18,656 nucleotides of DNA from an uncultured Bdellovibrionales bacterium (GTDB taxonomy: Bacteria; Bdellovibrionota_C; UBA2361; JBGSMV01), in assembly GCA_964631745.1 (NCBI GenBank), contig CAZVWV010000022.1, positions 15,640 to 34,295 on the forward strand, written 5' to 3'. The notes under the pieces were generated by a model. The model searched no databases, had not been told where the DNA came from, and saw only the letters and a list, made by a program, of their open reading frames with translations. Within the stretch, counting starts at the first letter, position 1. Each line of letters begins with the position of its first letter. Positions 5,332-18,556 of the stretch are shown piece by piece. Position numbers and translations under genes: made by a program.

Positions 5332-5510
5332 CTCAAGCGGGCTTTTGGTTCCGGTCGGCCCACATTCCGCGACGTGAGTGTACCGATCTTTATTCCCCTT
5401 CCCAAATCGATTTGGATTGGGCTAGTACTTGTGGAGCCTTGGTCAAAACGCAGAAACCCATAGACTTTTTGCCAAACAACCCAAGCTTACAAATATGTTG
5501 AGATGGGCGG

Positions 5511-5609
5511 CATAACACCCGAATTCTCCCGTCAGCGGGGCGCGACCACTTTGGGTAATTTGGCTTGACTAAATGGCCCCGCTGCGGGAGATTCGGCAAC
5601 ACATTAGCT
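5511..5609 (+). repeat. attC-like site, family 1 copy A
   Basis: cATAACa ... CCGAaTTCTCCCGtCAGCGGGGC ... TTGACT ... GCCCCGCTGCGGGAGATTCGG ... cATTAGC. One of four ~95-bp copies (see 9575, 16385, 16779) that are about 80-90% identical. Imperfect dyad, with extra bases only in the 5' arm. Confidence 0.7.
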
Positions 5610-5629: not shown

Positions 5630-6040
5630 ATGATGGCCCGAGACATTAGTAAAGTTTTTTGTATGACCGCAGCTCTTTCAAGCTTCGCGCTTGGAGTAAC
5701 CGGTTGTGATAACTTGAATCCTGGATCCGATCCTTCATTTTTGGGAAGAATAGGTACCGCTGACTTATATCTTAAGGAGATTGGCGGTAGGAGTTACTTA
5801 GTCGTAGACGACGATCCTGGCACTGCTTGCATAGAACATCACCCAAAATCAAAATTAGATAACATTGCCCACAGCTTTAGCAGTCAACTTGAGGGGAAGG
5901 CTGGCGACGTTGAGCTCTATACAGTTGAGGTCGATGGCACCAAATATCTTTTATCTCTAAACTACCTTACGAATCGCGGCCATGGATGTGATTTAATACT
6001 GATCCCAGAAGGGGCAAGTGGCGACACTCTCGCAAGATAA
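5630..6040 (+). CDS. Cassette-borne small lipoprotein, function unknown
   Basis: MMARDISKVFCMTAALSSFALGVTGC signal with lipobox. TAA stop at 6038-6040 is embedded in the GATAAC R'' box of the next attC. I take the ATG at 5630 because the track's ATG at 5573 lies inside attC-A. Confidence 0.5.
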   Translation: MMARDISKVFCMTAALSSFALGVTGCDNLNPGSDPSFLGRIGTADLYLKEIGGRSYLVVDDDPGTACIEHHPKSKLDNIAHSFSSQLEGKAGDVELYTVEVDGTKYLLSLNYLTNRGHGCDLILIPEGASGDTLAR

Positions 6041-6132
6041 CACCGGCCCGAAACTGACCGCGCCCCTTGAGTACTCGTGGCGCCATGATATTATATCTGG
6101 GGCGCGGCAGTTTTGGCCGCGAACCGTTATCC
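6035..6132 (+). repeat. attC-like site, family 4 copy a
   Basis: GATAACACCGGCCCGAAACTGACCGCGCCCC ... GGGGCGCGGCAGTTTTGGCCGCGAACCGTTATCC. About 85% identical to the copy at 9005-9101. Unpaired bases in the left arm. Confidence 0.65.
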
Positions 6133-6139
6133 ACTCATT

Positions 6140-6610
6140 ATGAACCAAACTAAAGCCGAGTATTACAAGAGCTTGCCGGCCAAGAGAATGGGCGCTGGCG
6201 TTCTTTTCTTTAATGATCAAAATGAACTCTTGCTCGTGCAACCAACCTACAAAGACACTTGGGAAATTCCAGGTGGCATTGTTGAACTAAGCGAATCACC
6301 GCGTGATGCAGTGCTCCGCGAAGTTCATGAGGAGCTAGGTTTAAAGATTGAACCTGAACTACTTAATTTTACATGCATTGAATATATGTCTGCGGGCAAA
6401 GAGATCTCGGAGTCCTTAATGTTTGTATTCTCGGGAGGGGTGCTTACTGAAAACATTATTAACCAGATTAACTTAGAATCTTCCGAACTCAAATCATTTA
6501 AGTTTGTTCCACCGAGTAGTATCACTGAATTTCTCGGACCAATTCTCGGGTCGAGAATCATAAAATGTCTTGAATCATCTAGTTGCTTTTACTCGGAAAA
6601 CAAATACTAG
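6140..6610 (+). CDS. NUDIX hydrolase
   Basis: Canonical Nudix box GGIVELSESPRDAVLREVHEELGL (Gx5Ex7REUxEExGU). I take the ATG at 6140 because the track's TTG at 6113 lies inside the attC. The TAG stop lies 5 nt before the next R''. Confidence 0.85.
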   Translation: MNQTKAEYYKSLPAKRMGAGVLFFNDQNELLLVQPTYKDTWEIPGGIVELSESPRDAVLREVHEELGLKIEPELLNFTCIEYMSAGKEISESLMFVFSGGVLTENIINQINLESSELKSFKFVPPSSITEFLGPILGSRIIKCLESSSCFYSENKY

Positions 6611-6721: not shown

Positions 6722-7276
6722 TTACTCACGCCCAAAACCGATCTTTCCCTTTCTCCCTCTCTGCATCGGTTCCTTCGGTTGAGCGTTAATTAACTCCCGA
6801 ATGCTATTGAACACCACTTTAAATTGGGCGTCATAACGCCGCTCTAGTTCGTCTAATCGTTTCGCGAACTCTTTGTTACTTGCTAGAATCTGCCGCATCC
6901 GGACAAACGCTCTGATGATCGCTATATTCACATGAATAGCTCTCTCACTATTCAAAACACTGGAAAGCATTGAAATTCCGTGCTCAGTGAACGCGTATGG
7001 CAGGTTTCGTCGGCCAGGCTTACCACTTGAGGTCACAATTTGTGACCGTAAAGCCGTGTATTCTTGGCTAGTTAGCTGAAACATGAAGTCCGCCGGGAAT
7101 CTTTCCACGTTTCGCTTTACAGCCTGTACCAGCGCCTTCGTTCTTACTTGGTAAAGTCTGGCTAGATCCTCGTCCAGCATTACCTTCTCACCTCTAATGA
7201 AGTAAATTGATTGCTCCAGCCGTTCAACAGGTATTACAGAACTGTTCTTTTTATTCATCGTTTCCCAAACTATCAT
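6722..7276 (-). CDS. ORF6N-domain (KilA-N-like / antirepressor-type DNA-binding) protein
   Basis: N-terminal IYFIRGEKVMLDEDLARLYQVRTKALVQAVKRNVERFPADFMFQLT is the ORF6N signature. The ORF is inverted within its cassette and sits next to the family-2 attC. Confidence 0.75.
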   Translation of the reverse strand: MIVWETMNKKNSSVIPVERLEQSIYFIRGEKVMLDEDLARLYQVRTKALVQAVKRNVERFPADFMFQLTSQEYTALRSQIVTSSGKPGRRNLPYAFTEHGISMLSSVLNSERAIHVNIAIIRAFVRMRQILASNKEFAKRLDELERRYDAQFKVVFNSIRELINAQPKEPMQRGRKGKIGFGRE

Positions 7277-7302: not shown

Positions 7303-7381
7303 AGATAACCATTGAATTCACGATATTTCGCGCTTTAGAATCAGTTTGGCGCGAAAATCGTGATTCAACAGAACGTTGGAC
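7303..7381 (+). repeat. attC-like site, family 2 copy a
   Basis: GATAACC ATTGAATTCACGATATTTCGCGC ... GGCGCGAAAATCGTGATTCAACA GAACGTTGGAC. The R' GTTGGAC is a perfect GTTRRRY. Confidence 0.65.
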
Positions 7382-7436
7382 TGAGCCGCGCAGTAGCGCG
7401 GAGGATCCTAAGCGAGAATTTGAATCGTAAGAGTAA

Positions 7437-7645: not shown

Positions 7646-8233
7646 ATGAACGATAAAAAAAGTACGCCACTTAGAGAGAAAATGAAAGCGGATTTAATGC
7701 TTCGGAATTATTCTAAGCCTTCTGAAGAGTTATATCTGTTTCATGTCAGGCGCTTTGCACAACACTATCACAAATCCCCAGGACATCTTGGACTAGACGA
7801 GATCCGGAGCTACCTGACGTACCTGCGCCAAGAAGCCAACGTATCGCAGTCATCGTATAAGCAAACGGTGGCAGCGCTCAAAGACGGCAACGTCTCTTTC
7901 TCCTACAAAGATTACAGAACTAACGAAAAGAAATTGATGACGCTGCCTGCTGTAGAGTTTATTCGGAGATTTCTGCTGCATGTGCTTCCAAACAAGTTCG
8001 TGAGGGTGCGCTACTACGGGTTCCTGACCAGGGCAAAGAAACTTGCCGCTCTGAGCACTATTAGAGAGGCGTTGGAGACCCATTCTCAAGCCCCGCCACC
8101 AAAACCTGCCACTACGCCCCATAGACACTGCTGCCCGGCCTGCAAGCTCGGGAAATTGGTCCACATTGGCCAAGTCCCACGCTGTTCGATTCCAGGCACT
8201 AGTCCACCAGCGCAACATACAGCCCTTTCTTAG
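7646..8233 (+). pseudogene. Degenerate chimeric ORF: tyrosine-recombinase (IntI/Xer-type) SAM-like N-terminal domain joined to the C-terminal segment of an IS91-family (Y2 HUH) transposase
   Basis: Residues 8-80 (LREKMKADLMLRNYSKPSEELYLFHVRRFAQHYH...VSQSSYKQTVAAL) fit the recombinase N-terminal SAM-like domain. Residues about 100-175 (EFIRRFLLHVLPNKFVRVRYYGFLTRAKK ... CCPACKLGKL) fit the Y2-transposase C-terminus with its terminal Zn motif. No catalytic domain sits between them. Confidence 0.45.
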
Positions 8234-8267
8234 CCAATCGCTCTTAGCTATACTAACTTCAATCGTT

Positions 8268-8394
8268 GGAGGCTGCGCGGCCCAGTCCAACGGGGTGTCG
8301 AGCCGCGATTCTCAGGCGAGAACGCTGCGGCAAGTTGGCACTCCTTGGCTGATAATCGCGGCCCAACACTAAACATTATCCCCTTTAGGCAGCC
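8268..8394 (+). repeat. attC-like site, family 3 copy 1; it has an extended outer palindrome
   Basis: GCGCGGCCCA GTCCAAC ... GAGCCGCGATTCTCAGGCGA ... GGCTGATAATCGCGGCCC AACACTAAACATTATCC. About 80% identical to 14966-15086. The 10 nt outside R'' are the reverse complement of the 10 nt that follow R' at the cassette start (7382-7391). Confidence 0.55.
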
Positions 8395-8663
8395 AGTTTT
8401 CTCTTGAGAACCTTAATCTCATTTTCAATCTGTTCAAGTCTCGAGGCAGCCGTCACTTTATCCGACATGCTTTCACTCAGAGTCCTGTTAATTAGCCGCT
8501 GATAAGGAATTCCACTCTCATCAGCCATAGCTCTTAGCTTTGCAAGAGTTTCGGCATTGATATTGATTGTAATTTTTATGCTCTTCTGGCGAGCCATCGC
8601 AGAACGTATTCGCTTGGTTTCAGCCCTATCGATTTTAAGATTTTTTAGGTTTGGTTTTTTCAT
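8385..8663 (-). CDS. brnA: BrnA antitoxin (CopG/RHH-type)
   Basis: MKKPNLKNLKIDRAETKRIRSAMARQKSIKITININAETLAKLRAMADESGIPYQRLIN. Starts at the internal Met of the track ORF and overlaps the end of brnT by about 29 nt. Confidence 0.7.
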   Translation of the reverse strand: MKKPNLKNLKIDRAETKRIRSAMARQKSIKITININAETLAKLRAMADESGIPYQRLINRTLSESMSDKVTAASRLEQIENEIKVLKRKLAA

Positions 8664-8922
8664 TGTATATTCTCCTAAACTCTCGCCATTCGGCCGACCC
8701 ATAAATTCGTACTTTTCCTTCTCGCCTTGTAAACCGAGTCGTAAGTATCTTCCCCGAACTCGATCTCCCCAACCAATAAAAACGCTCCTCATCCTGAGAA
8801 TGCTTATCATCTCTGATGGCAAATCCATCAGGATCGGAAAAAGACTCCGCGGCTTCGGAAAAACTCACCTTGTGCTTCCTAAGGTTTTCTTTAGCTTTGC
8901 CGGCGTCCCACTCGAAATCCAT
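8635..8922 (-). CDS. brnT: BrnT toxin (DUF497 ribonuclease family)
   Basis: MDFEWDAGKAKENLRKHKVSFSEAAESFSDP...DDKHSQDEERFYWLGRSSSGKILTTRFTRREGKVRIYGSAEW matches the BrnT pattern (FEWD..K...N..KHGVSF.EA, HS..EERF). The toxin lies upstream of the antitoxin, as in BrnTA. Confidence 0.8.
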   Translation of the reverse strand: MDFEWDAGKAKENLRKHKVSFSEAAESFSDPDGFAIRDDKHSQDEERFYWLGRSSSGKILTTRFTRREGKVRIYGSAEWREFRRIYNEKTKPKKS

Positions 8923-9004: not shown

Positions 9005-9101
9005 GGATAACACCGACCTTAAACTGACCGCGCCCATTGATTAGGGTTGCCAGTATGGTACCATTATGGGGCGCGGCAGTTTAGGCCGCAAAACGTTAGG
9101 C
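9005..9101 (+). repeat. attC-like site, family 4 copy b
   Basis: GATAACACCGACCTTAAACTGACCGCGCCC ... GGGGCGCGGCAGTTTAGGCCGCAAAACGTTAGGC. Perfect R' GTTAGGC. Extra T and A in the left arm. Confidence 0.7.
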
Positions 9102-10147: not shown

Positions 10148-10235
10148 GTGGGCGCACTGGAGGCAAAATCCTGGGGCTTTCTTAGGAATTTTGTGACTGT
10201 TATGATGATTTTGCCCCAGTGGTTCTAAACGTTAA
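10148..10235 (+). repeat. Candidate attC-like site, family 9
   Basis: GGCTAAC ... GCGCACTGGaGGC / GCCCCAGTGGTTC imperfect dyad, with one extra A in the left arm. R' is AAACGTTAACC. Confidence 0.4.
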
Positions 10236-10256
10236 CCCCTTTTAGCAGTAATACCC
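10235..10256 (+). repeat. 22-bp direct copy of the tip of the Tn3-family IRR (ACCCCTTTTAGCAGTAATACCC)
   Basis: Identical to 12822-12843 and in the same orientation. It starts 5 nt after a cassette boundary and 13 nt before the tnpA ATG. Confidence 0.5.
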
Positions 10257-10268
10257 CTCCTTGACCAA

Positions 10269-12743
10269 TTGATGGAACCAAATGACGCGAGTTCGGCGAA
10301 GCTCACACGGTATCAGCTTACGCTCATGAAGAAATTCGCTCACTCCATTGCGCCATCTGCAATAAAGGAAAATGTCGAGCAGCTTGTAGCGCTGCGTGAA
10401 CTTTACCTTGAGATTCGAGCAGTATTAGAAGAGCTTGATCTTACCCGCGAAGGCATTCGTTACTTTGCGACCTACGTTTTAAAATCGCCTACTTGGAGGC
10501 TTTCTGCAAGAGAGGACCATGACCGATACTTGCACATGATAACTTTTGTTGCTCATCAGTACTATCAACTTCAAGATATCCTTGTCGATGTTTTGCTCAG
10601 CTCTGTAACGGCAATTAACAACGGCGCACGTCGTGAGCACAAAGATGGTTGCTACGAACAGCGGTCTCAAAAAAATAGCTCCCTTGCAAATGTGATTGAA
10701 ACAGTTGAGAAACTTCTCTCTGGCTATGCTGAGATTCACGATATCTTGCACAAAAAGGGACTACACTCGGATAAAAAAATAGAGCTTATCAAGGCTCTAC
10801 TTGATGAAAATGAAGCTGCTATCCGTAACGCCAGAAAGCATGTCATTAACCTCAAACAGGCATCTCAGCAGGTGGTTGAGAATGATTTCTACGCAATTCT
10901 GGAATCAAAGTCGGTCAAACTTCAAAATAGAGTCGCAGGGATTGTAAAAACGCTTGAGTTTAGATCTGACTGCTCTGATAAGCTGCTCTACAGCGCCATA
11001 TGTCACTATAGAGAGCACGCTACCCTCACTGAATCTGCACCATACGATTTCTTAAGTCCGGTTGAGCAGAATCTCTTGCACAGAGACGGTGGAAAGTTTC
11101 GAGTTCCGCTCTATAAAGTGCTGCTCTTTGGAAGAATCGCTGAAGCAATTCGGGCCGGGACCCTTAACTTAGACCACTCATACAAGTATCGCACTTTAGA
11201 AGAGTATCTAATCGCGCGGTGCGCTTGGGATGAGGGAAAAGATGTCCTCATAGAGCGCGCAAGCCTCCAAGTTGTTGAGAACTGTCCTAAAGTGCTTACC
11301 GATCTTCAAACCCGCCTAGCGCAATATTATCAGCTTACAAATCAGCGAATTTTAGATGGCGGCAATGAATTTGTTTCGGTCAAAAGTACCGGCGCTTATA
11401 CCGTGCAAACCCCGCCAGTAGCCGAGAAGATGGCTCCTGGCCTGCCTGAGTACTTTCCAGAGACTAAATTTATTTCTCTGCTTGAAATCCTTTCCACAAC
11501 CAATCAAGTAACAAATTTTCTAGCAGAATTTAAACGCTCAAAATTAAAGTATAATCGCGCACGACCAAGCGATCGGTCCTTTTTTGCCGGTTTACTCGGA
11601 TTTGGGTGCGGCATCGGTATAAAAAGAATCGCTCAAATCTCAAACCTCATCGACGAAGATGAGCTTGAAAGAACCGTAAACTGGCATTTTTCTTTAGATA
11701 ATGTTGAAGCTGCCAACGATAGAATTTTAGCCTTCATGGATAAGCTTGATCTCCCCTCGGTTTATCTCCAAGACCCAGAGTGGCGGCACACCTCAAGTGA
11801 CGGCCAAAAGGTAGAGGTGGCCGTGCCTTCGCTTAATGCCAATTACTCGTTTAAATATTTCGGCCAAGGTAAGGGCGTGAGCGTCTATAGCTTCATTGAT
11901 GAGAGACATTTTCTCTTTCACTCAACGGTAATTAGCTCAGCGGAACGGGAGGCCGCATATGTAATCGACGGCTTGATGCACAATGATGTTGTACAGAGCG
12001 ATATTCATTCAACTGATACTCACGGCTATACTGAAGTAATATTTGGCGCGACGCATCTTTTGGGATTCATGTTCGCCCCTCGAATCAAGAGTTTAGGGCG
12101 ACAACACCTCTATACCTTTCCTGGCAATACAAAAAAGCTGTACAAAGAAATGAAATACCCTATCCTGCCAGATGGCGTTATCAACATTCAATTAATCGCA
12201 GATAACTGGGATGAAATTCTGCGATTCGTGGCTACCATCAAACTAAAAGAAACCCCTGCTTCGCAGCTATTTAGACGACTTAACTCATACTCAAAATCGC
12301 ACCCTTTATGGGACGCTCTCAAAGAGTTTGGAAAAATTATAAAATCGATTTTCATCCTTCACTACATCGACGATCTCAATCTTCGCCAGGCAGTTGAGAA
12401 GCAGATGAACAAGATCGAAAGTGCTCAGAAGTTTTCAAACGCCGTGGCGTTCGGATCACAAGAATTTAGGCAGGCAGACCGAGAGGAGCAAAATATTGTC
12501 GCTGCTTGTCGCAGGCTTATTAAGAACGCCATCATCTGTTGGAACTACCTATACCTTTCGCAAAAAATTGTAGATGCGCCGAGCCCAGCGCAGAAAAATG
12601 AAATTATTGATGCCGTTCAAAACGGCTCAGTGGTCGCATGGCGGCACATTAATTTCTACGGGGAGTATGATTTCTCAGATGAAAAGCTCAGGGATTCTGT
12701 TGGAATTACTGCCCCTTCGGTTAGGAGTCTTAGAGTGGCTTGA
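10269..12743 (+). mobile_element. tnpA: Tn3-family transposase TnpA, N-terminally truncated relative to full-length (~1000 aa) TnpA
   Basis: 824 aa. Family motifs: RYLHMITFVAHQYYQLQDILVDVLL; SSDGQKVEV; HSTDTHGYTEVIFGATHLLGFMFAPRIKSLGRQHLYTF (DDE region). The first ~170 aa, the N-terminal DNA-binding region, are absent. No resolvase or res site nearby. Confidence 0.85.
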
Positions 12744-12805
12744 AATTCAAAAATGGGAGGGTCGTTTTTGAGTTAAGTTGCTGATCTGGCATAAGAATTC
12801 GGAAA

Positions 12806-12843
12806 TTCTGTGGCGGTTTTCACCCCTTTTAGCAGTAATACCC
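12806..12843 (-). mobile_element. Tn3-family 38-bp terminal inverted repeat (IRR)
   Basis: Read from the tip it is GGGTATTACTGCTAAAAGGGGTGAAAACCGCCACAGAA. It shares GGG at the tip, GCT at 11-13 and GAAAAC at 23-28 with the Tn3 IR (GGGGTCTGACGCTCAGTGGAACGAAAACTCACGTTAAG). It lies 63 bp past the tnpA stop. Confidence 0.55.
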
Positions 12844-13233: not shown

Positions 13234-13330
13234 GGCTAACAATTGAATTCACGAGATTTCGCGCCACTACCTTTAGTAGTTGCTTTGACATCCAGTTGGC
13301 GCGAAACTCCTGATTCAACATCACATTATG
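13234..13330 (+). repeat. attC-like site, family 2 copy b
   Basis: GGCTAAC AATTGAATTCACGAGATTTCGCGCC ... GGCGCGAAACTCCTGATTCAACA TCACATTATG. Variant R' is CATTATG. Confidence 0.6.
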
Positions 13331-14123: not shown

Positions 14124-14345
14124 TTAAAGGCTGATTTTCTGCTTGAGATCCGACCATGAAATGCCGGTATCGGGGTCTCTCCTATAATGCGCAAGTCTAG
14201 CGCGCAATTCCACTTTTTGGTCTTCGCTGAGCTCAAGTGAATCTGGGAGCTGCTCTATGCTGTCCCAAATATCCTGAACAAGTTGAATTCGCTCTGAAAC
14301 GCTTAAGCCAAGAATCTCTTCTAGAAGTTCCTTTTCTTTGGGCAT
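14124..14345 (-). CDS. Antitoxin, 'putative addiction module component' (TIGR02574-like), partner of the ParE-like toxin
   Basis: LSVSERIQLVQDIWDSIEQLPDSLELSEDQKVELRARLAHYRRDPDTGISWSDLKQKI fits the LSxEERLxLIxxLWDSL...AxLDRRLAxYxxDP pattern of this antitoxin family. Located upstream of the toxin. Confidence 0.65.
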   Translation of the reverse strand: MPKEKELLEEILGLSVSERIQLVQDIWDSIEQLPDSLELSEDQKVELRARLAHYRRDPDTGISWSDLKQKISL

Positions 14346-14364
14346 CTGAGTATTGTATAGCTAA

Positions 14365-14432
14365 GCGCATAACAACGCAATCAATAGACATTTTGCTTCG
14401 CAAAATGCTATTGATTGCGCGATACGTTGGAC
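14365..14432 (+). repeat. Short attC-like site (~68 bp), family 7
   Basis: GCATAAC AACGCAATCAATAGaCATTTTGC ttcg GCAAAATGCTATTGATTGCGCGAT ACGTTGGAC. Perfect R' GTTGGAC. Extra base in the left arm. Confidence 0.7.
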
Positions 14433-14515
14433 TGAGCCGCGCTGGCGCGCGGAGGGGTGTAATTGAAACATTTATGGTTGAATTGGAATGATTCGTAAGA
14501 GACGGTCATTTTTTG
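14433..14515 (+). repeat. Conserved cassette-start leader (second copy) with CCGCGC-N4-GCGCGG hairpin and a degenerate terminator
   Basis: TGAGCCGCGCTGGCGCGCGGAGG...GAATTGGAATGATTCGTAAGAGACGGTCATTTTTTG, against 7382-7465 TGAGCCGCGCAGTAGCGCGGAGG...GAATTTGAATCGTAAGAGTAAGACCGGCACCGACCGGTCATTTTTTTTT. Confidence 0.6.
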
Positions 14516-14965
14516 TATACGAGATTAGGTGAAACGCCACTTCATGGCGCTGAAGGCGTCTTGCCTGACTTTTAATTGCGAATAGCGAGAAGCCTACTAA
14601 TTTCACTTGATATCTTTTGAAGAGCTGGCAGCATTGCTTCCCAAAAAGAGAAGCGGGCCTGTCGCGACTGCTTACTTACGTGCAGTCAGGAATGGAGATT
14701 CCTTTTTTACCGCCAGGGATGGCGGCGCCGCTTTAGACATAAACTGAGAGCGCGAATTGTGCTCAGACTCGGTGGGTAGGCCGAAGGCTTTTTGAAAGAA
14801 AAGCTATATTTCTTGGGGTGGGTTGTGCCTAATTGCAAAACTGAGAGATTTTTTATTACGTTAAATCAAATAGTTATTACTCTCCACATAAAAAACGCTG
14901 ACCAATCCCCATAGGCATAATCAGGCGTTGATTAACTATCTGGTTCCTTCAATAATCAAACCATT

Positions 14966-15086
14966 GTAGGCAGCGCGGCACAGTCCAACCGGGTGTCGAG
15001 CCGCGCTTCTCAGGCGAAGTTGCGGCACTGACTTCTCCCGTTTTGGCTGAGAACCGCGGCCCAACACTAAACATTAGGCAGACAGA
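14966..15086 (+). repeat. attC-like site, family 3 copy 2
   Basis: GCGCGGCACA GTCCAAC CGGGTGTCGAGCCGCGCTTCTCAGGCGA ... GGCTGAGAACCGCGGCCC AACACTAAACATTAGGCAG. Confidence 0.55.
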
Positions 15087-15091
15087 GCATT

Positions 15092-15883
15092 ATGCGTTGC
15101 GATTTTCCTATCCTTGAATACGATTCGGACCAGACAGCCCGTATCGAACCCACTGCTGTAGTGCCGGATGGCACGCTGCCTGAGATATGTATCATCTCGT
15201 TTTTCGCCGATGCTATTGAAAGGTTCGTCTCCAACGCCAACGCGACTGTGGCCTGTCGTTTTGACACGATGATAAGCTCGCATCCCGTCTATGAATTCTC
15301 CTACAAGGAGCGGCGGTTGGCCCTACTGCCAGCCGGGCTCGGTGGACCCCTTTCTGTTGGTCTTCTCGAGCACGCTATTGCTATGGGCTCGCGGTATTTT
15401 GTGGTGTGTGGCGCAGCGGGTGTTCTCAACAAAGAGATTGCAGCGGGACACCTGATTTTGCCAACAGCGGCGATACGGGATGAAGGAACGTCGTACCACT
15501 ACCTCCCGCCAGCTCGCGAAGTTGTGCCAAGTGCCGCAGCAGTAGCGGCTATTGGGAAAGTACTTGAAGATGCTAATATCCCGGTCGTTCGCGGAAAAAC
15601 ATGGACCACGGATGCATACTTTCGGGAAACGCGACGTAAGATTGAGTTGCGCCAGTCCGAGGACTGTATTTGTGTCGAAATGGAGGCGGCTGCCCTGTTT
15701 TCCGTCGCGGTGTTTCGCGGGGTTGATCTCGGCTATATCCTTTACGGAGGAGATTCCGTTGCCGGTGTTTGGGACCCACGAGAAGAGTTTGACCGTGCTG
15801 TGGTTCGCGAGAGGCTGATTCGCCTTTCCTGCGAAGCATGCTGTTTACTAGCCGATCAAACAAACGTTCTGAGGCATAAGTGA
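15092..15883 (+). CDS. Nucleoside phosphorylase-I family protein (PNP/UDP/MTAN-type phosphorylase domain)
   Basis: VEMEAAALFSVA matches the family's VEMEAAA[IL] active-site motif. The upstream segment LALLPAGLGGPLSVGLLEHAIAMGSRYFVVCGAAGVL...ILPTAAIRDEGTSYHY aligns with the DeoD/MTAN substrate-binding core. The ATG lies inside CATTATGCG. Confidence 0.7.
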   Translation: MRCDFPILEYDSDQTARIEPTAVVPDGTLPEICIISFFADAIERFVSNANATVACRFDTMISSHPVYEFSYKERRLALLPAGLGGPLSVGLLEHAIAMGSRYFVVCGAAGVLNKEIAAGHLILPTAAIRDEGTSYHYLPPAREVVPSAAAVAAIGKVLEDANIPVVRGKTWTTDAYFRETRRKIELRQSEDCICVEMEAAALFSVAVFRGVDLGYILYGGDSVAGVWDPREEFDRAVVRERLIRLSCEACCLLADQTNVLRHK

Positions 15884-15888
15884 GGGCT

Positions 15889-15983
15889 GCCTAACAATTG
15901 GAGCGAGCGGAGGAAAGGCCGCGAATGAAATTGATGATTTGTAGATTTGAAGTGGCCTTTCCCCGCTCCTCCTCGCCATTATC
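15889..15983 (+). repeat. attC-like site, family 5
   Basis: GCCTAAC (perfect RYYYAAC) AATTGGAGCGAGCGGaGGAAAGGCC ... GGCCTTTCCCCGCTCCTCCTCGC CATTATC. Confidence 0.55.
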
Positions 15984-16012
15984 CCGCCCTTTCGTTTGCA
16001 ACTTGTAATTTA

Positions 16013-16390
16013 ATGAATCAGGCCTTAACCCCCTATAGAGATGTCTTTCTGCGGTTGTTGAATGCTCTCCTGTTTCTGAGCTTAGTGGGTTTTCATGTCA
16101 TGCCAAAGTTATCGCTTATTATTATCGGCAATCAGCAACCTTCCGTTTTTCACATCGTCGCATTCGTAGTTTCAATTACGTCGGGATGTATTGCAGCGAA
16201 GTGGATAATAAAGCGGTTCTCCTTTGTTGAGCATTTAATTGTTTCATTTTGCCTTCTCCCACTTACAATTTGTGTGGCGGTAAGTTTACGGGAGGGTTTA
16301 ATATGGATTCTTATATTAGCTCTTTTCTCGCTTTTTAGTTATCTTCCTTACCGAAGAATCCAAAAAACAAGACCACCAAGCGCGGGATAA
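16013..16390 (+). CDS. Small integral membrane protein (about 4 TM helices), unknown function
   Basis: 125 aa with four hydrophobic segments. The TAA stop at 16388-16390 is embedded in the GATAAC R'' of attC-C. I take the ATG at 16013 because the track's start lies inside the preceding attC. Confidence 0.45.
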   Translation: MNQALTPYRDVFLRLLNALLFLSLVGFHVMPKLSLIIIGNQQPSVFHIVAFVVSITSGCIAAKWIIKRFSFVEHLIVSFCLLPLTICVAVSLREGLIWILILALFSLFSYLPYRRIQKTRPPSAG

Positions 16391-16485
16391 CCACCGAGTA
16401 CTCCCGATAGCGAGGCCGCGTTCTGCTTTGGTAATTTGAGTTGACTTGGAGGCCCCGCTGCGGGAGACTCGGCAAAACGTTAACC
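16385..16485 (+). repeat. attC-like site, family 1 copy C
   Basis: GATAACCA CCGAGTaCTCCCGAtAGCGaGGCCGCG ... TTGACTTGGAGGCCCCGCTGCGGGAGACTCGGCAAAAC GTTAACC. Confidence 0.75.
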
Positions 16486-16507
16486 CTCATTTAAAAATTC
16501 ATAGCAG

Positions 16508-16777
16508 ATGGGTATTGCAACCACTCTAATTATCTACGTCGCGCTCTTTCTCGTCATACGCCAGTCAGTTTTTATTATTGGCGAGAATCAGCGCGGAGTA
16601 ATTGTCCGGCTAGGGCGTTTCGAAAGAATTCATTATCCCGGGTTGCTTATTGTGGTTCCTTTCATGGACCGGGTTCACAAGATAGACTTGCCTGCACAAG
16701 TACCTGGTTGGGAGAAACTTTCTAAGGAGCAGCTTGATGCTAAGGTTCAGGAAATTGCTTTGAGCAAGATAGAATGA
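16508..16777 (+). CDS. SPFH/band-7 domain N-terminal fragment (89 aa)
   Basis: TM helix, then IIGENQRGVIVRLGRFERIHYPGLLIVVPFMDRVHKIDL, the start of the SPFH (stomatin/HflK/C) fold. Far shorter than functional SPFH proteins. The TGA stop lies 2 nt before the R'' of attC-D. Confidence 0.55.
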   Translation: MGIATTLIIYVALFLVIRQSVFIIGENQRGVIVRLGRFERIHYPGLLIVVPFMDRVHKIDLPAQVPGWEKLSKEQLDAKVQEIALSKIE

Positions 16778-16778
16778 G

Positions 16779-16879
16779 GGTTAACCACCGAGTTCTCCCG
16801 ACAGCAGGGCCACGATCATTAGTGGTAGTTCGAATTGACTAAGAAGCCCCGCTGCGGGAGACTCGGCAAAACGTTATGT
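16779..16879 (+). repeat. attC-like site, family 1 copy D (last attC of the array)
   Basis: GGTTAACCA CCGAGTtCTCCCGACAGCaGGGCCaCG ... TTGACTAAGAAGCCCCGCTGCGGGAGACTCGGCAAAAC GTTATGT. The R' overlaps the pepD stop codon. Confidence 0.75.
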
Positions 16880-18556
16880 GCGCTGACAAAGCTCACCTAG
16901 AAGTCCGACCAATCCGTTGAGGAAAGGCGGTACTGAACGCAACACCACACATTCGCGTAAGCCGTGAGCCCCAAGAATGGTGGGGCCTCTAGAATCTATC
17001 TCAAGCTCTGGATAAGCAGCTCTGGGAAAAGCAAACTCTAACCCACAGTGAGCTCCCTTGACGCGGGCCGGTTGGCCGCTATGAAGTTTTCCATGAGCAC
17101 GTTGAGCTATTTCAAGCAAAGAGCTGGATTCCCGCGGAGGTGACAATGGATATGTCTTTCCAAACTCAAATCTAAATTCACTATTTCGTAGTTCCGTTAG
17201 TATCGGCTCTTGCACTGACTCAATGCCTCCAGGTCGGTTGGATCGAGTCATGGTGAGCAGATTTACAGCATCATTCGTAGTTGAACTCAGGCTCCATGTA
17301 TTACTAGTAGCAACAAAGTCTTCGACTCCGTCCGGCAAAAATGCGGGAATTTCTGAGGCTCGCTCAATCACTCCATCAGCCATCGAACTTACGAGGTTCT
17401 GAAGTTTCCGCAAGAATCCAGAATCCATCACAGGGGGGAAAACAGGCTTTTTACTATCTTCGACTATTTCCACCTGAACAGAAATGTCATCTCCCTCGAG
17501 CTGTCTCGTTTGACGAGAAAGAGCTCGTTTTACTTGAGCACAAAAATCAGTGGCTTTTCCTTTATGACACCAAACGACCAAGGTAGCATCTGTGGGAATT
17601 GAACTTCGGCCAAGCCCTCCTTGTAGCGAAGCAAATCGAATTCCCTCGATATCAACGCCGTCTCCCAATGCTTCAAATAGAATCTTCTGCGCGTTGCCAT
17701 GGCCTTTATCAACATCCAAGCCACTGTGACCACCTTTCAAGCCAGTAAGAGATATATTAACAGGAACTTCATTTTCCGAACGCTCGTCACGAGACACGGG
17801 GAGTGTTATTTTTAAGTCTCTCCCTCCAGCTGCACTTATGAAGATGCCTTCTTCCTCCATGTCGAGATTGATCCAATATCTGCGCTGTACATCAGGATCT
17901 GATACGGTGCGAAGAAGGCCATAATCTAGTCCCTTTATGCCTTGCATGTCGCCCTCTTCGTCAGAGGTGAAGACAATTTCCAACGGCGGATGATCTATTC
18001 CCGGGGTCTGAAGCACAGCAAGAATGGCGCTCAGTGACAGATTGTTATCAGCCCCTAATGATCCTTCCTGTGCATATAGTACCCTCTCGCGCCTGCCTCG
18101 CTCAATCTCCCTGGACTCTACTGCTAATGTTCGCTTACAGCCAGCGTCAAAACCTTCGTAGCGCATATCAACAATGTCCATATGAACCTGTAAAACACTT
18201 GGGTCAGCGCCAACTCCACTCCCTCTTCCATCTGCATATAGAATCGCGTTGCCGACTTTGTCGATCTTCATCTGTCGAACCGGTATCAATCCGAGGGAGC
18301 CATCGTTGTAGTGCGGAAAAGCTAGCTGGGCGACATACTCTCGAACATGCCTTTCGTGACCTGACCTTCTGTCTAGTTGGCTGAGCGAGGCGAAGTGCGC
18401 AAACGTGGTCGTGCAAAGTTTCGTCGGGCAAAATGGCAGTAACTCTGCGGCCAATTGTCCGGTAAGAAGAGGGGATTCGGCCATCTGCTGAGCCAATTGC
18501 TGAGCTTGAGTGAATGAGGGCAGTTCTAGTCCAGGCAAATTGAATCCTCCGCGCAA
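16874..18556 (-). CDS. pepD: Aminoacyl-histidine (Xaa-His) dipeptidase PepD, M20 family
   Basis: VLQVHMDIV, LGADNNLSLSAILAVL...PLEIVFTSDEEGDMQG, LKGGHSGLDVDKGHGNA and HCGLEFAFP...YPELE...GPTILGAHGLRE align along the whole length with E. coli PepD motifs. Confidence 0.85.
   Translation of the reverse strand: MRGGFNLPGLELPSFTQAQQLAQQMAESPLLTGQLAAELLPFCPTKLCTTTFAHFASLSQLDRRSGHERHVREYVAQLAFPHYNDGSLGLIPVRQMKIDKVGNAILYADGRGSGVGADPSVLQVHMDIVDMRYEGFDAGCKRTLAVESREIERGRRERVLYAQEGSLGADNNLSLSAILAVLQTPGIDHPPLEIVFTSDEEGDMQGIKGLDYGLLRTVSDPDVQRRYWINLDMEEEGIFISAAGGRDLKITLPVSRDERSENEVPVNISLTGLKGGHSGLDVDKGHGNAQKILFEALGDGVDIEGIRFASLQGGLGRSSIPTDATLVVWCHKGKATDFCAQVKRALSRQTRQLEGDDISVQVEIVEDSKKPVFPPVMDSGFLRKLQNLVSSMADGVIERASEIPAFLPDGVEDFVATSNTWSLSSTTNDAVNLLTMTRSNRPGGIESVQEPILTELRNSEFRFEFGKTYPLSPPRESSSLLEIAQRAHGKLHSGQPARVKGAHCGLEFAFPRAAYPELEIDSRGPTILGAHGLRECVVLRSVPPFLNGLVGLLGELCQRT

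What the first reader, a model, noticed from the sequence alone, without database searches (positions are those of the whole stretch)
15087..16873. Three consecutive cassettes with a phosphorylase-family enzyme, a 4-TM membrane protein and an SPFH fragment; candidate uncharacterised cassette functions
A PNP/UDP-phosphorylase-fold protein as a cassette is unusual cargo, although the fold also occurs in housekeeping enzymes. Nucleoside-phosphorylase domains act as nucleotide-depleting effectors in some anti-phage systems, and integron arrays are enriched for defence genes, so this enzyme could be a stand-alone defence or abortive-infection effector. The next two cassettes encode a small polytopic membrane protein and an SPFH-domain N-terminal fragment, functions also seen in defence islands. 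Each is a separate cassette, so any functional link is speculative.
Basis: inference. Interest (0 to 1): 0.55.

Follow-up and report, generated by a model that had tools for sequence, protein, structure and literature searches.

The report
Three ordinary integron cassettes, defence unsupported
The last three gene cassettes of an integrase-less integron-type array carry an intact enzyme of the nucleoside-phosphorylase fold, an orphan small membrane protein and a truncated SPFH remnant, and nothing found here links them to each other or to phage defence.

Summary
Window 15074-16873 is three consecutive cassettes, each with one + strand ORF followed by its own attC hairpin. They sit at the far end of an array of at least 12 attC sites with no integrase in the window.

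Cassette 1 encodes an intact 263-aa NP-I fold protein (PF01048). It belongs to a large uncharacterised family centred on Chloroflexota, with more than 8000 homologues at about 50% identity. These are single genes with no conserved neighbours.

The family keeps the ribose and base catalytic residues (E-M-E, Asp221). At the diagnostic phosphate-binding Arg and Ser/Thr it has Ala/Val and Gly/Ala, as the hydrolases MtnN and Amn do. I infer a hydrolytic nucleosidase rather than a phosphorylase.

The defence reading is not supported:
- No PADLOC hit even at E<=10, while the DtcC control hits strongly.
- No profile similarity to DtcC.
- No sensor domain or partner gene.
- Neighbours of homologues are not defence genes.

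Relatives at 30-36% identity recur on resistance plasmids and on a tet(O) phage, a weak hint of a detoxifying role.

Cassette 2 is a near-orphan membrane protein with four hydrophobic segments. Cassette 3 holds only the first 49 of 176 SPFH profile positions.

This is ordinary cassette cargo of unknown function and of low interest.

The parts
14959..15079 (+). attC of the preceding (ORF-less) cassette. Its R' core ATTAGGC (15073-15079) marks the start of cassette 1 at 15074.
   Evidence: It is 88-94% identical to the element at 8261-8378 (D2/D5). The bottom strand forms a hairpin, z -2.2. Sequence read.
15074..15978 (+). Cassette 1 (905 bp, 53.8% G+C against 46.3% for the array).
   Evidence: Limits come from the R' cores. 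G+C.
15092..15883 (+). Intact gene for a 263-aa NP-I (PNP_UDP_1) fold enzyme of an uncharacterised subfamily, inferred to be a nucleosidase.
   Evidence: Pfam 4.5e-31. More than 8000 homologues. AlphaFold pLDDT 87.6 and pTM 0.88. The closest solved fold is S. solfataricus MTAP, TM 0.75/0.85 at 21% identity. Active-site columns are. dN/dS is 0.09 against the copy in L003.
15890..15984 (+). attC of cassette 1 (R'' GCCTAAC 15890-15896; R' ATTATCC 15978-15984, with A in place of the usual G).
   Evidence: The bottom strand forms a bulged 19-pair hairpin, z -3.0. Cores read.
15979..16479 (+). Cassette 2 (501 bp, 43.9% G+C).
   Evidence: Limits come from the R' cores.
16013..16390 (+). Gene for a 125-aa membrane protein with four hydrophobic segments (near-orphan). 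The ORF as listed starts at TTG 15947, inside the attC, so ATG 16013 is the likely start.
   Evidence: ORF; hydropathy. No Pfam, NCBIfam, PADLOC or PHROG family. Only 4 hits among 1.84 billion representatives, the best 36% identical at E 1.7e-11.
16385..16485 (+). attC of cassette 2 (R'' GGATAAC contains the ORF's stop codon; R' GTTAACC).
   Evidence: Repeat family D1. Hairpin z -3.6.
16480..16873 (+). Cassette 3 (394 bp).
   Evidence: Limits come from the R' cores.
16508..16777 (+). 89-aa ORF: one N-terminal membrane helix, the first ~50 residues of an SPFH/Band-7 domain, then an unrelated 19-aa tail. It is a truncated remnant.
   Evidence: Pfam Band_7 covers profile positions 1-49 of 176. 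HflC and HflK N-termini match only. One hydrophobic segment. No relative other than itself in the word-indexed search.
16779..16879 (+). Last attC of the array (R'' GGTTAAC; R' GTTATGT). Its end overlaps the stop codon of the convergent pepD-like gene.
   Evidence: Repeat family D1. Hairpin z -4.65. Sequence.
16874..18556 (-). Chromosomal flank: a divergent aminoacyl-histidine dipeptidase (PepD-like, M20). It marks the distal end of the array and is not part of the cassettes.
   Evidence: NCBIfam TIGR01893, 1.4e-61. The best non-self homologue is only 30% identical.

Best explanation
These are the three most distal cassettes of an integron-type attC array that has no integrase in the window (CALIN-like). 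Each was acquired independently by attC recombination. They are stored cargo, not an operon.

Cassette 1 carries an intact gene under purifying selection. It encodes a stand-alone NP-I fold enzyme of a widespread, uncharacterised family centred on Chloroflexota.
- The enzyme keeps the residues that hold the ribose (Glu196-Met197-Glu198) and that protonate the leaving base (Asp221).
- At the Arg and Ser/Thr that bind the phosphate nucleophile in DeoD and Udp it has Val105 and Ala109, as the hydrolases MtnN and Amn do.
- It probably also replaces the Gly-x-x-x-Arg phosphate loop with Phe-Phe-x-Asp-Ala.
- I infer that it cleaves the N-glycosidic bond of a purine-type nucleoside or nucleotide by hydrolysis. 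Its role would be metabolic (salvage) or detoxifying, not that of a regulated suicide effector.

Cassette 2 encodes a near-orphan membrane protein with four hydrophobic segments, function unknown. Cassette 3 is a truncated SPFH gene remnant that cannot form an SPFH domain.

Shown: the cassette structure, the fold, family membership, the residue pattern, and the lack of similarity to defensive PNP domains. Inferred: hydrolysis, the substrate class and the biological role.
For: Cassette structure:
- attC cores and hairpins.
- No integrase domain in any ORF of 100 aa or more.
- Chromosomal genes lie on both flanks.

Enzyme, fold and family:
- PF01048 at 4.5e-31; confident NP-I model.
- More than 8000 homologues at about 50-55% identity.
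They span many phyla.

Enzyme, residue pattern:
- The column of DeoD R87 / Udp R91 is A, V, S, L, I or F in 83 of 83 family members (never Arg). It is N in MtnN and M in Amn.
- The column of S90/T94 is G in 65 of 83.
- M180, E181 and D204 equivalents are kept in 82 of 82 (the same is seen in HMMER alignments to 1jds, 4lnh, 1odi, 1ybf and 5lhv).
- The loop after strand 1 reads S36-F37-F38 and the following helix starts at A39, where 4lnh has C-G-E-P-D-R. AlphaFold places strand 32-36 and helix 39-48.
- The uracil-binding PGQER insertion of Udp is absent.
- The AAIRxEGTSxxYLP motif is shared with the short AMP-nucleosidase-like protein 1ybf.

Gene integrity:
- All 46 invariant family columns are present in the window protein.
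- dN/dS is 0.09 against the 77%-identical copy in L003.

Not an operon:
- Each gene has its own attC.
- G+C is 54%, 44% and 47% for the three cassettes.
- No relative of any of the three is found next to a relative of another.

No conserved partners of homologues:
- The best neighbour cluster occurs in 7 loci among the neighbours of the 62 loci with a recognised homologue.
- 188 Pfam families occur among 148 neighbours.
Against: - Hydrolysis is inferred from residues only. The family has several invariant Arg/Lys (R129, R142, K169, R178, R187, R209) that could build a different phosphate site.
- The N-terminal loop alignment rests on one HMMER alignment plus the predicted secondary structure. 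MAFFT and hhalign do not align that region reliably.
- No substrate can be named.
- The host and the rest of its genome are unknown, so an integrase elsewhere on the 34-kb contig cannot be excluded.
- Expression is unknown. No convincing promoter or Shine-Dalgarno sequence was seen.
Confidence: 0.6

Rival explanations
1. One reading: the PNP-fold protein is a stand-alone anti-phage or abortive-infection effector that depletes nucleotides, as the ATP nucleosidases Cap17 and DtcC do.
For: - Integron cassettes are a known reservoir of compact defence systems, many invisible to PADLOC and DefenseFinder.
- The protein has a hydrolase-like residue pattern.
- The only close relative (P0002, 77% identity) lies 3 genes from a HEPN_AbiU2 gene.
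- Toxin-antitoxin-like cassettes are present in the same array.
Against: - No PADLOC hit at E<=10, while the DtcC control hits at 1.4e-64 and 4e-12.
- hhalign of the family against DtcC gives probability 0.3%.
- The closest relatives by sequence and fold are the Udp, SsMTAP and PNP group. Only the Cap17 clade is defence-associated (Table S3).
- There is no sensor or regulatory domain. The isolated Cap17 PNP domain is toxic in E. coli.
- Thousands of homologues are single chromosomal genes, one next to an adenosine deaminase.
- Neighbours show no recurrent defence system.
- The copy near HEPN_AbiU2 is a pseudogene.
Confidence: 0.06
2. It is a conventional phosphorolytic nucleoside phosphorylase (DeoD/Udp-like salvage enzyme) that happens to sit in a cassette.
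For: - Databases call the relatives 'nucleoside phosphorylase' or 'uridine phosphorylase'.
- The best solved relatives by sequence and fold are phosphorylases.
- The ribose and base residues are conserved.
- Several invariant basic residues could bind phosphate.
Against: - The diagnostic Arg (DeoD R87 / Udp R91) is absent in 83 of 83 family members, and the Ser/Thr is mostly Gly.
- The GxPxR loop is probably replaced by FFx(D/E)x.
- The uracil-binding insertion is absent.
- All NCBIfam equivalog scores are a quarter of the cut-off or less.
Confidence: 0.2
3. The enzyme's role is resistance. It inactivates a toxic nucleoside antibiotic or analogue by removing the base, which would explain why the family is repeatedly picked up by mobile elements.
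For: - Relatives at 30-36% identity with the same motifs lie between tet(O) and an aminoglycoside/streptothricin resistance cluster on Campylobacter plasmid pN29710-1 and six sister plasmids.
- Another lies near the tet(O) region at the end of S. pyogenes phage phi-m46.1.
- Another lies next to an IS3 transposase, with an IS4 transposase a few genes away, on an Enterococcus plasmid.
- Among 148 neighbours of chromosomal homologues the commonest families are GNAT acetyltransferases (6). AadA_C (2) is also present.
- Here the gene is an integron cassette.
Against: - Co-location with tet(O) may be hitch-hiking of one ancestral fragment.
- GNAT and methyltransferase genes are common everywhere, and no statistical background was computed.
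- No resistance phenotype is reported. The one paper found only lists the gene (PMC6145009).
- Most homologues are plain chromosomal genes.
Confidence: 0.12

Closest known systems
Integron gene cassettes in an integrase-less array (CALIN, or the distal end of a sedentary chromosomal integron)
   Same: - One promoterless ORF per unit, all on one strand.
- Each ORF is followed by a 95-121-nt imperfect palindrome with RYYYAAC...GTTRRRY-type cores and bulged bottom-strand hairpins.
- At least 12 such sites lie in 11.4 kb between chromosomal genes.
   Different: - No intI or attI in the window.
- 5 of 12 R' cores read CATT instead of CGTT, including both sites that bound the PNP cassette. This suggests decay.
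- This attC type was not found in JGI metagenome contigs.
Hexameric NP-I nucleoside phosphorylases (E. coli DeoD and Udp, S. solfataricus MTAP 1jds, T. thermophilus PNP 1odi, V. fischeri 4lnh)
   Same: - Same fold: TM 0.75-0.85.
- Same ribose-binding E-M-E and, except in Udp, the same catalytic Asp.
- Similar size.
   Different: - About 20% identity.
- The phosphate-binding Arg and Ser/Thr are replaced by Val/Ala and Ala/Gly.
- No Udp uracil-binding insertion.
- An N-terminal extension of about 16-20 residues carries an invariant PILE(F/Y)D motif.
NP-I hydrolases: AMP nucleosidase (E. coli Amn; short AMN-like 1ybf) and MTA/SAH nucleosidase MtnN
   Same: - No Arg at the diagnostic position (N in MtnN, M in Amn).
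- The AAIRxEGTSxxYLP motif is shared with 1ybf.
- The best NCBIfam hit is the short AMP nucleosidase model.
   Different: - The score of 66.6 bits is far below the cut-off of 264.
- No Amn regulatory N-terminal domain.
- MtnN is more distant than Udp in profile comparison (8.9e-09 against 5.9e-14).
Defensive ATP nucleosidases of the Cap17 clade (CBASS Cap17, Detocs DtcC)
   Same: Same Pfam superfamily (PF01048). Presumably the same bond is cleaved. They are hydrolases.
   Different: - No detectable profile similarity to DtcC and no PADLOC model hit.
- No sensor or receiver domain and no partner genes.
- The family is not located near defence genes.
SPFH/Band-7 proteins (HflK, HflC, stomatin-like)
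   Same: The N-terminal membrane helix and the first ~50 residues of the SPFH domain match.
   Different: Only 49 of 176 profile positions are present. The ORF ends 19 residues later and the cassette has no room for the rest. No NfeD-type partner was detected: cassette 2 has no Pfam hit.

Membership tests
Integron gene cassette | An attC site at the 3' end with inversely matching R''/R' cores and an imperfect bottom-strand hairpin with bulges. | tested here: met
   All three cassettes meet this. Hairpin z-scores are -3.0, -3.6 and -4.65. Two of the sites belong to a 4-copy repeat family. The R' of cassette 1 is ATT rather than GTT.
Integron gene cassette | A compact unit with one ORF in the array's orientation, with boundaries at the R' crossover. 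| tested here: met
   The units are 905, 501 and 394 bp, each with one + strand ORF.
Complete integron | An intI integrase gene and attI next to the first cassette. | tested here: not met
   No Phage_integrase domain in any ORF of 100 aa or more. Left of the first attC are Dps, YdbH, DUF1318 and bPH_2 genes. The rest of the source contig could not be retrieved.
NP-I / PNP_UDP_1 superfamily (PF01048) | Pfam score above the gathering cut-off, and the alpha/beta NP-I fold. | tested here: met
   108.5 bits against a cut-off of 25.1. pLDDT 87.6; Foldseek probability 1.00 to many NP-I structures.
DeoD/Udp-type phosphorylases | The phosphate-binding Arg (DeoD R87 / Udp R91) and Ser/Thr (S90/T94) in the R-x-G-S/T-x-G motif. 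| tested here: not met
   The query has V105 and A109. No family member out of 83 has Arg there.
DeoD/Udp-type phosphorylases | NCBIfam equivalog score above the cut-off. | tested here: not met
   Udp TIGR01718 scores 58.9 against 280.3. DeoD TIGR00107 scores 32.4 against 232.
AMP nucleosidase | NCBIfam equivalog score above the cut-off. | tested here: not met
   PRK07115 scores 66.6 against 264. TIGR01721 scores 61.2 against 307.
AMP nucleosidase / NP-I hydrolases | Hydrolytic activity, with water rather than phosphate as the nucleophile. | not testable with these tools
   Only the residue pattern is available. An enzyme assay is needed.
Cap17-clade defensive ATP nucleosidase | Sequence membership of the Cap17/DtcC PNP clade. 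| tested here: not met
   No PADLOC hit at E<=10, while DtcC hits two PNP-containing models. hhalign probability is 0.3%. No full phylogeny was built.
Cap17-clade defensive ATP nucleosidase | Fusion to, or an operon with, a sensor or signalling module (SAVED/TPALS, receiver, NLR and the like). | tested here: not met
   The 263-aa protein is a single domain. The neighbouring genes are separate cassettes. Homologues have no conserved neighbour.
Cap17-clade defensive ATP nucleosidase | An anti-phage phenotype that depends on the catalytic Asp. | not testable with these tools
   Experiment required.
SPFH/Band-7 | A complete SPFH domain (about 176 profile positions). | tested here: not met
   Only positions 1-49 are matched. 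The ORF ends at residue 89 and the attC follows at once.

The most novel reading that the evidence does not exclude
The 263-aa protein represents a large, overlooked hydrolase branch of the nucleoside-phosphorylase superfamily that mobile elements capture repeatedly (an integron cassette here, Campylobacter and Gram-positive resistance plasmids, and a tet(O) phage). On this reading it is captured because it protects the cell, either by destroying toxic nucleoside antibiotics or analogues, or as a sensor-less single-gene anti-phage nucleosidase unrelated to the Cap17 clade.
Probability: 0.12. Interest if true: 0.6.

Novelty: new member of a known kind. Interest (0 to 1): 0.25.

Why it matters
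As it stands the finding matters little. Integron arrays are full of cassettes of unknown function, and these three add one enzyme, one orphan membrane protein and one gene remnant.

The useful by-product concerns the enzyme's family. It is very large and annotated everywhere as 'nucleoside/uridine phosphorylase', yet it lacks the phosphate-binding residues that define phosphorylases, and it turns up on resistance plasmids.

If biochemistry showed it to be a nucleosidase with a defined substrate, thousands of annotations would be corrected. A detoxifying or protective role would also become testable.

Tried and rejected
**Defence membership**
- PADLOC on all three proteins gave nothing.
- PHROGs gave only a weak 'lipoprotein' hit for the SPFH fragment.
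- hhalign against DtcC was negative.

**Known RNA or riboswitch upstream of the enzyme**
- Rfam at gathering threshold on the whole window gave 0 hits.
- Rfam at E<=1 on 14300-17000 gave only a chance miRNA hit.

**Conserved neighbourhood of homologues**
- All-against-all clustering of neighbours, then Pfam and PADLOC scans of 148 neighbours, showed no recurrent partner.

**Identifying the host or the rest of the contig**
- Exact-protein look-ups for the NCBI contig failed, and cluster names were empty.
- PepD-like homologues are at most 30% identical.
- The Logan contigs are identical sub-pieces of the window.

**Other arrays with the same attC type**
- Two metagenome scans found nothing.

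**Whether the 77% relative in L003 sits in an intact cassette**
- Homology starts at the TTAGGCAG core and ends just after GCYTAAC.
- The flanks do not fold as attC (z +0.3 to +0.5).
- That copy has a premature stop plus P20L, E198K and D221A. I read it as a fossil copy, not proof of recent mobility.

**N-terminal phosphate loop**
- MAFFT alignments misplace DeoD's PGDP against the family's N-terminal motif.
- hhalign does not reach that region.
- Only the 4lnh HMMER alignment and the predicted secondary structure were used for it, and that claim is marked as probable.

**NfeD-SPFH pairing of cassettes 2 and 3**
- Rejected. Cassette 2 has no NfeD or any other Pfam hit, and an attC separates the two.

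**Literature**
- No paper in the library links an integron cassette to a nucleoside phosphorylase or characterises this family.
Full report
**1. Observation**

The window holds an attC array. A repeat search finds several families of 90-120-nt elements between 5508 and 16876. Reading their ends gives 12 sites with RYYYAAC...(G/A)TTRRRY-type cores.

The bottom strands of six of these sites were folded. All form long hairpins with bulges, with z-scores from -2.2 to -4.7 against dinucleotide shuffles.

Inside the finding's coordinates the crossover points define three cassettes.
- 15074-15978: ORF 15092-15883, attC 15890-15984.
- 15979-16479: ORF 16013-16390, attC 16385-16485.
- 16480-16873: ORF 16508-16777, attC 16779-16879.

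The array ends against a convergent, very divergent PepD-like dipeptidase gene. To its left lie ordinary chromosomal genes: Dps, the YdbH C-terminus, DUF1318 and bPH_2. No ORF of 100 aa or more has an integrase catalytic domain. In the window, then, this is a cluster of attC sites without an integrase.

- PNP_UDP_1 at E 4.5e-31.
- Four hydrophobic segments in the second protein.
- Band_7 profile positions 1-49 of 176 in the third.

**2. The enzyme: fold and family**

It is not an orthologue of any named enzyme. NCBIfam scores are 66.6 against 264 for the short AMP nucleosidase model, 58.9 against 280 for Udp, 32.4 against 232 for DeoD, and 27.7 against 169 for MtnN.

It belongs to a very large family. 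More than 8000 proteins score E<=0.001. Apart from an identical entry and one 77% relative, all are about 50-55% identical and about 254 aa long.

They are mostly Chloroflexota, with Acidobacteriota, Actinomycetota, Clostridia, deltaproteobacteria, a Lentisphaerae bacterium and one archaeon also present.

AlphaFold gives a confident NP-I fold (pLDDT 87.6, pTM 0.88). The nearest solved structures are S. solfataricus MTAP, uridine phosphorylases and T. thermophilus PNP, at TM 0.75-0.85 and about 20% identity. MTAN and futalosine hydrolase follow close behind.

**3. The enzyme: active site**

I took real E. coli K-12 sequences for DeoD, Udp, MtnN and Amn and aligned them with 83 family members.
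- The equivalents of DeoD M180, E181 and D204 are kept in 82 of 82 members.
- The column of the phosphate-binding Arg (DeoD R87, Udp R91) never holds Arg. It is A in 50, V in 22, and S, L, I or F in the rest. It is N in MtnN and M in Amn.
- The S90/T94 column is G in 65.

HMMER alignments to five solved proteins show the same pattern.

The alignment to 4lnh puts the family's C-F-F-Q-E-V opposite the phosphate loop C-G-E-P-D-R. The model places strand 1 at residues 32-36 and helix 1 at 39-48, which fits that alignment. MAFFT and hhalign do not align this region reliably, so I treat that part as probable only.

The Udp uracil-binding insertion is missing. The family shares AAIRxEGTSxxYLP with the AMN-like protein 1ybf.

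It is established knowledge of the NP-I superfamily that phosphorylases keep the R-x-G-S/T motif and the hydrolases do not. From that I infer a hydrolytic nucleosidase acting on a base that needs protonation by Asp221, meaning a purine-type base. The substrate is unknown. Several invariant basic residues would fit a phosphorylated substrate such as a nucleotide, but that is speculation.

**4. Is the gene alive?**

The window protein has all 46 invariant family residues.

Against the 77% copy in L003 the gene shows dN/dS 0.09, with dS about 1.5. That other copy has a stop at codon 227 and has changed Pro20, Glu198 and Asp221.

Homology between the two loci starts at the TTAGGCAG core and stops just after the GCYTAAC core. 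This fits a cassette origin. However, the L003 flanks no longer fold as attC.

Cassette 1 is 53.8% G+C against 46.3% for the array, consistent with foreign origin.

**5. Defence test**

- PADLOC gives nothing for the three proteins, and nothing for the enzyme even at E<=10. In the same call the Detocs effector DtcC hits PDC-M60C at 1.4e-64 and the CBASS 'PN-superfamily' effector at 4e-12. The DtcC sequence came from Table S1 of bioRxiv 10.1101/2023.01.24.525353.
- Profile-profile comparison of the family with DtcC gives probability 0.3%.
- In that paper only the Cap17 clade is enriched near defence systems: 18% against 2.6% expected. The DeoD/Udp clade is at 2.2% against 3.2% (Table S3). The described defensive members carry sensor or receiver domains or sit in defence operons, and the isolated Cap17 PNP domain is toxic.
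- Here the protein is a bare domain.
- Homologues on long contigs sit in unremarkable chromosomal settings, one next to an adenosine deaminase.
- Across the 62 loci with a recognised homologue, the commonest neighbour cluster occurs in 7 loci.
- 148 neighbours hit 188 different Pfam families. The commonest are GNAT acetyltransferases (6) and methyltransferases (3).
- PADLOC on the same set shows no recurrent system.

Defence is therefore unsupported. It is not excluded, because cassette defence genes found by experiment often have no PADLOC or DefenseFinder match.

**6. A weak lead**

Relatives at 30-36% identity with the same motifs are carried by mobile elements.
- Seven Campylobacter plasmids of 55 kb carry one between tet(O) and an aph/aad/sat4 cluster.
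- S. pyogenes phage phi-m46.1 carries one at the end of the record that also holds tet(O).
- Enterococcus, Lactococcus and Lactobacillus plasmids carry them. The Enterococcus copy lies next to an IS3 transposase, with an IS4 transposase a few genes away.

This may be hitch-hiking. It is the only contextual hint of a protective, for example nucleoside-detoxifying, role.

**7. The other two cassettes**

The 125-aa membrane protein has only four hits among 1.84 billion representatives (best 36% identity, E 1.7e-11).
- The best hit lies beside an APH-family kinase gene.
- A weaker one (27% identity) lies in a run of small same-strand ORFs. A repeated ...GACGTTATAC precedes it and recurs one gene further downstream, and a matching inverted ...GGTATAAC lies at its end. 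That locus is probably another cassette array.
- No function can be proposed beyond membrane insertion.

The 89-aa ORF is a membrane helix plus the first third of an SPFH domain and an unrelated tail. The cassette has no room for more. I read it as a remnant.

No relative of any of the three is found beside a relative of another. Each has its own attC, and their G+C contents differ. There is no basis for a functional link.

**8. Verdict**

The finding is a new member of a known kind, namely cassette cargo of unknown function. Its one mildly interesting aspect is that a large 'phosphorylase' family looks like a hydrolase and is recurrently mobilised.

Noticed in passing
window, R' cores at 5600-5606, 8372-8378, 13321-13327, 15070-15076 and 15975-15981: Five of the 12 attC R' cores read CATT where the others read CGTT (a G-to-A change at a CpG, that is, AAC to AAT on the recombining bottom strand). 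Both sites bounding the PNP cassette are affected. This suggests deamination-driven decay of the array and possibly loss of excisability.
   Followed up: partly
window 14431-15073: The cassette just upstream of the PNP cassette has no ORF longer than 46 aa (an ORF-less cassette). No Rfam family matches it.
   Followed up: partly
window 10232-12843: A Tn3-family DDE transposase gene (10269-12743, 824 aa, Pfam 1.6e-114) sits inside the array. It is flanked by 25-nt direct (not inverted) repeats at 10232-10256 and 12819-12843.
   Followed up: no
window 7646-8233 (+): A 195-aa ORF combines a Phage_int_SAM_4 N-terminal domain with the C-terminal end of a Y2_Tnp (IS91-type) profile. This recombinase/transposase fragment lies between two attC sites. 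It is not the array's integrase.
   Followed up: no
window 6113-6610 (+), 6722-7276 (-), 8385-8828 (-), 14124-14345 (-): Other cassettes encode a NUDIX hydrolase, an ORF6N/Rha-like regulator in reverse orientation, a BrnA/CopG-like antitoxin and an Unstab_antitox-family antitoxin (the last from the precomputed Pfam of the identical Logan contig L001).
   Followed up: no
window 8261-8378 vs 14959-15076; 6036-6129 vs 9006-9098; 7306-7404 vs 13237-13327: Three pairs of attC sites are 76-94% identical to each other, besides the four-copy family at 5508, 9574, 16384 and 16778. The array therefore uses at least five attC types.
   Followed up: no
window 16874-18556 (-): The flanking PepD-like dipeptidase has no relative above 30% identity among 5.8 billion proteins, and the attC type is absent from JGI metagenome contigs. 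The host lineage seems very poorly sampled.
   Followed up: partly
L003 526-2789: The decayed 77% copy of the PNP gene lies downstream of a HEPN_AbiU2 gene and two ORFs without Pfam hits, between a gene fragment (L003 3-230, no Pfam on record) and an ORF running off the contig end. It may be a small degraded cassette island in a G+C-richer organism.
   Followed up: partly
L087 5992-6762 (Campylobacter coli pN29710-1) and L088 6190-6702 (phage phi-m46.1): Members of the same NP-I subfamily travel with tet(O) on a Campylobacter resistance plasmid and a streptococcal phage. On the plasmid the gene is annotated only as 'nucleoside phosphorylase'; the phage record calls it 'pnp: phosphorylase'.
   Followed up: partly
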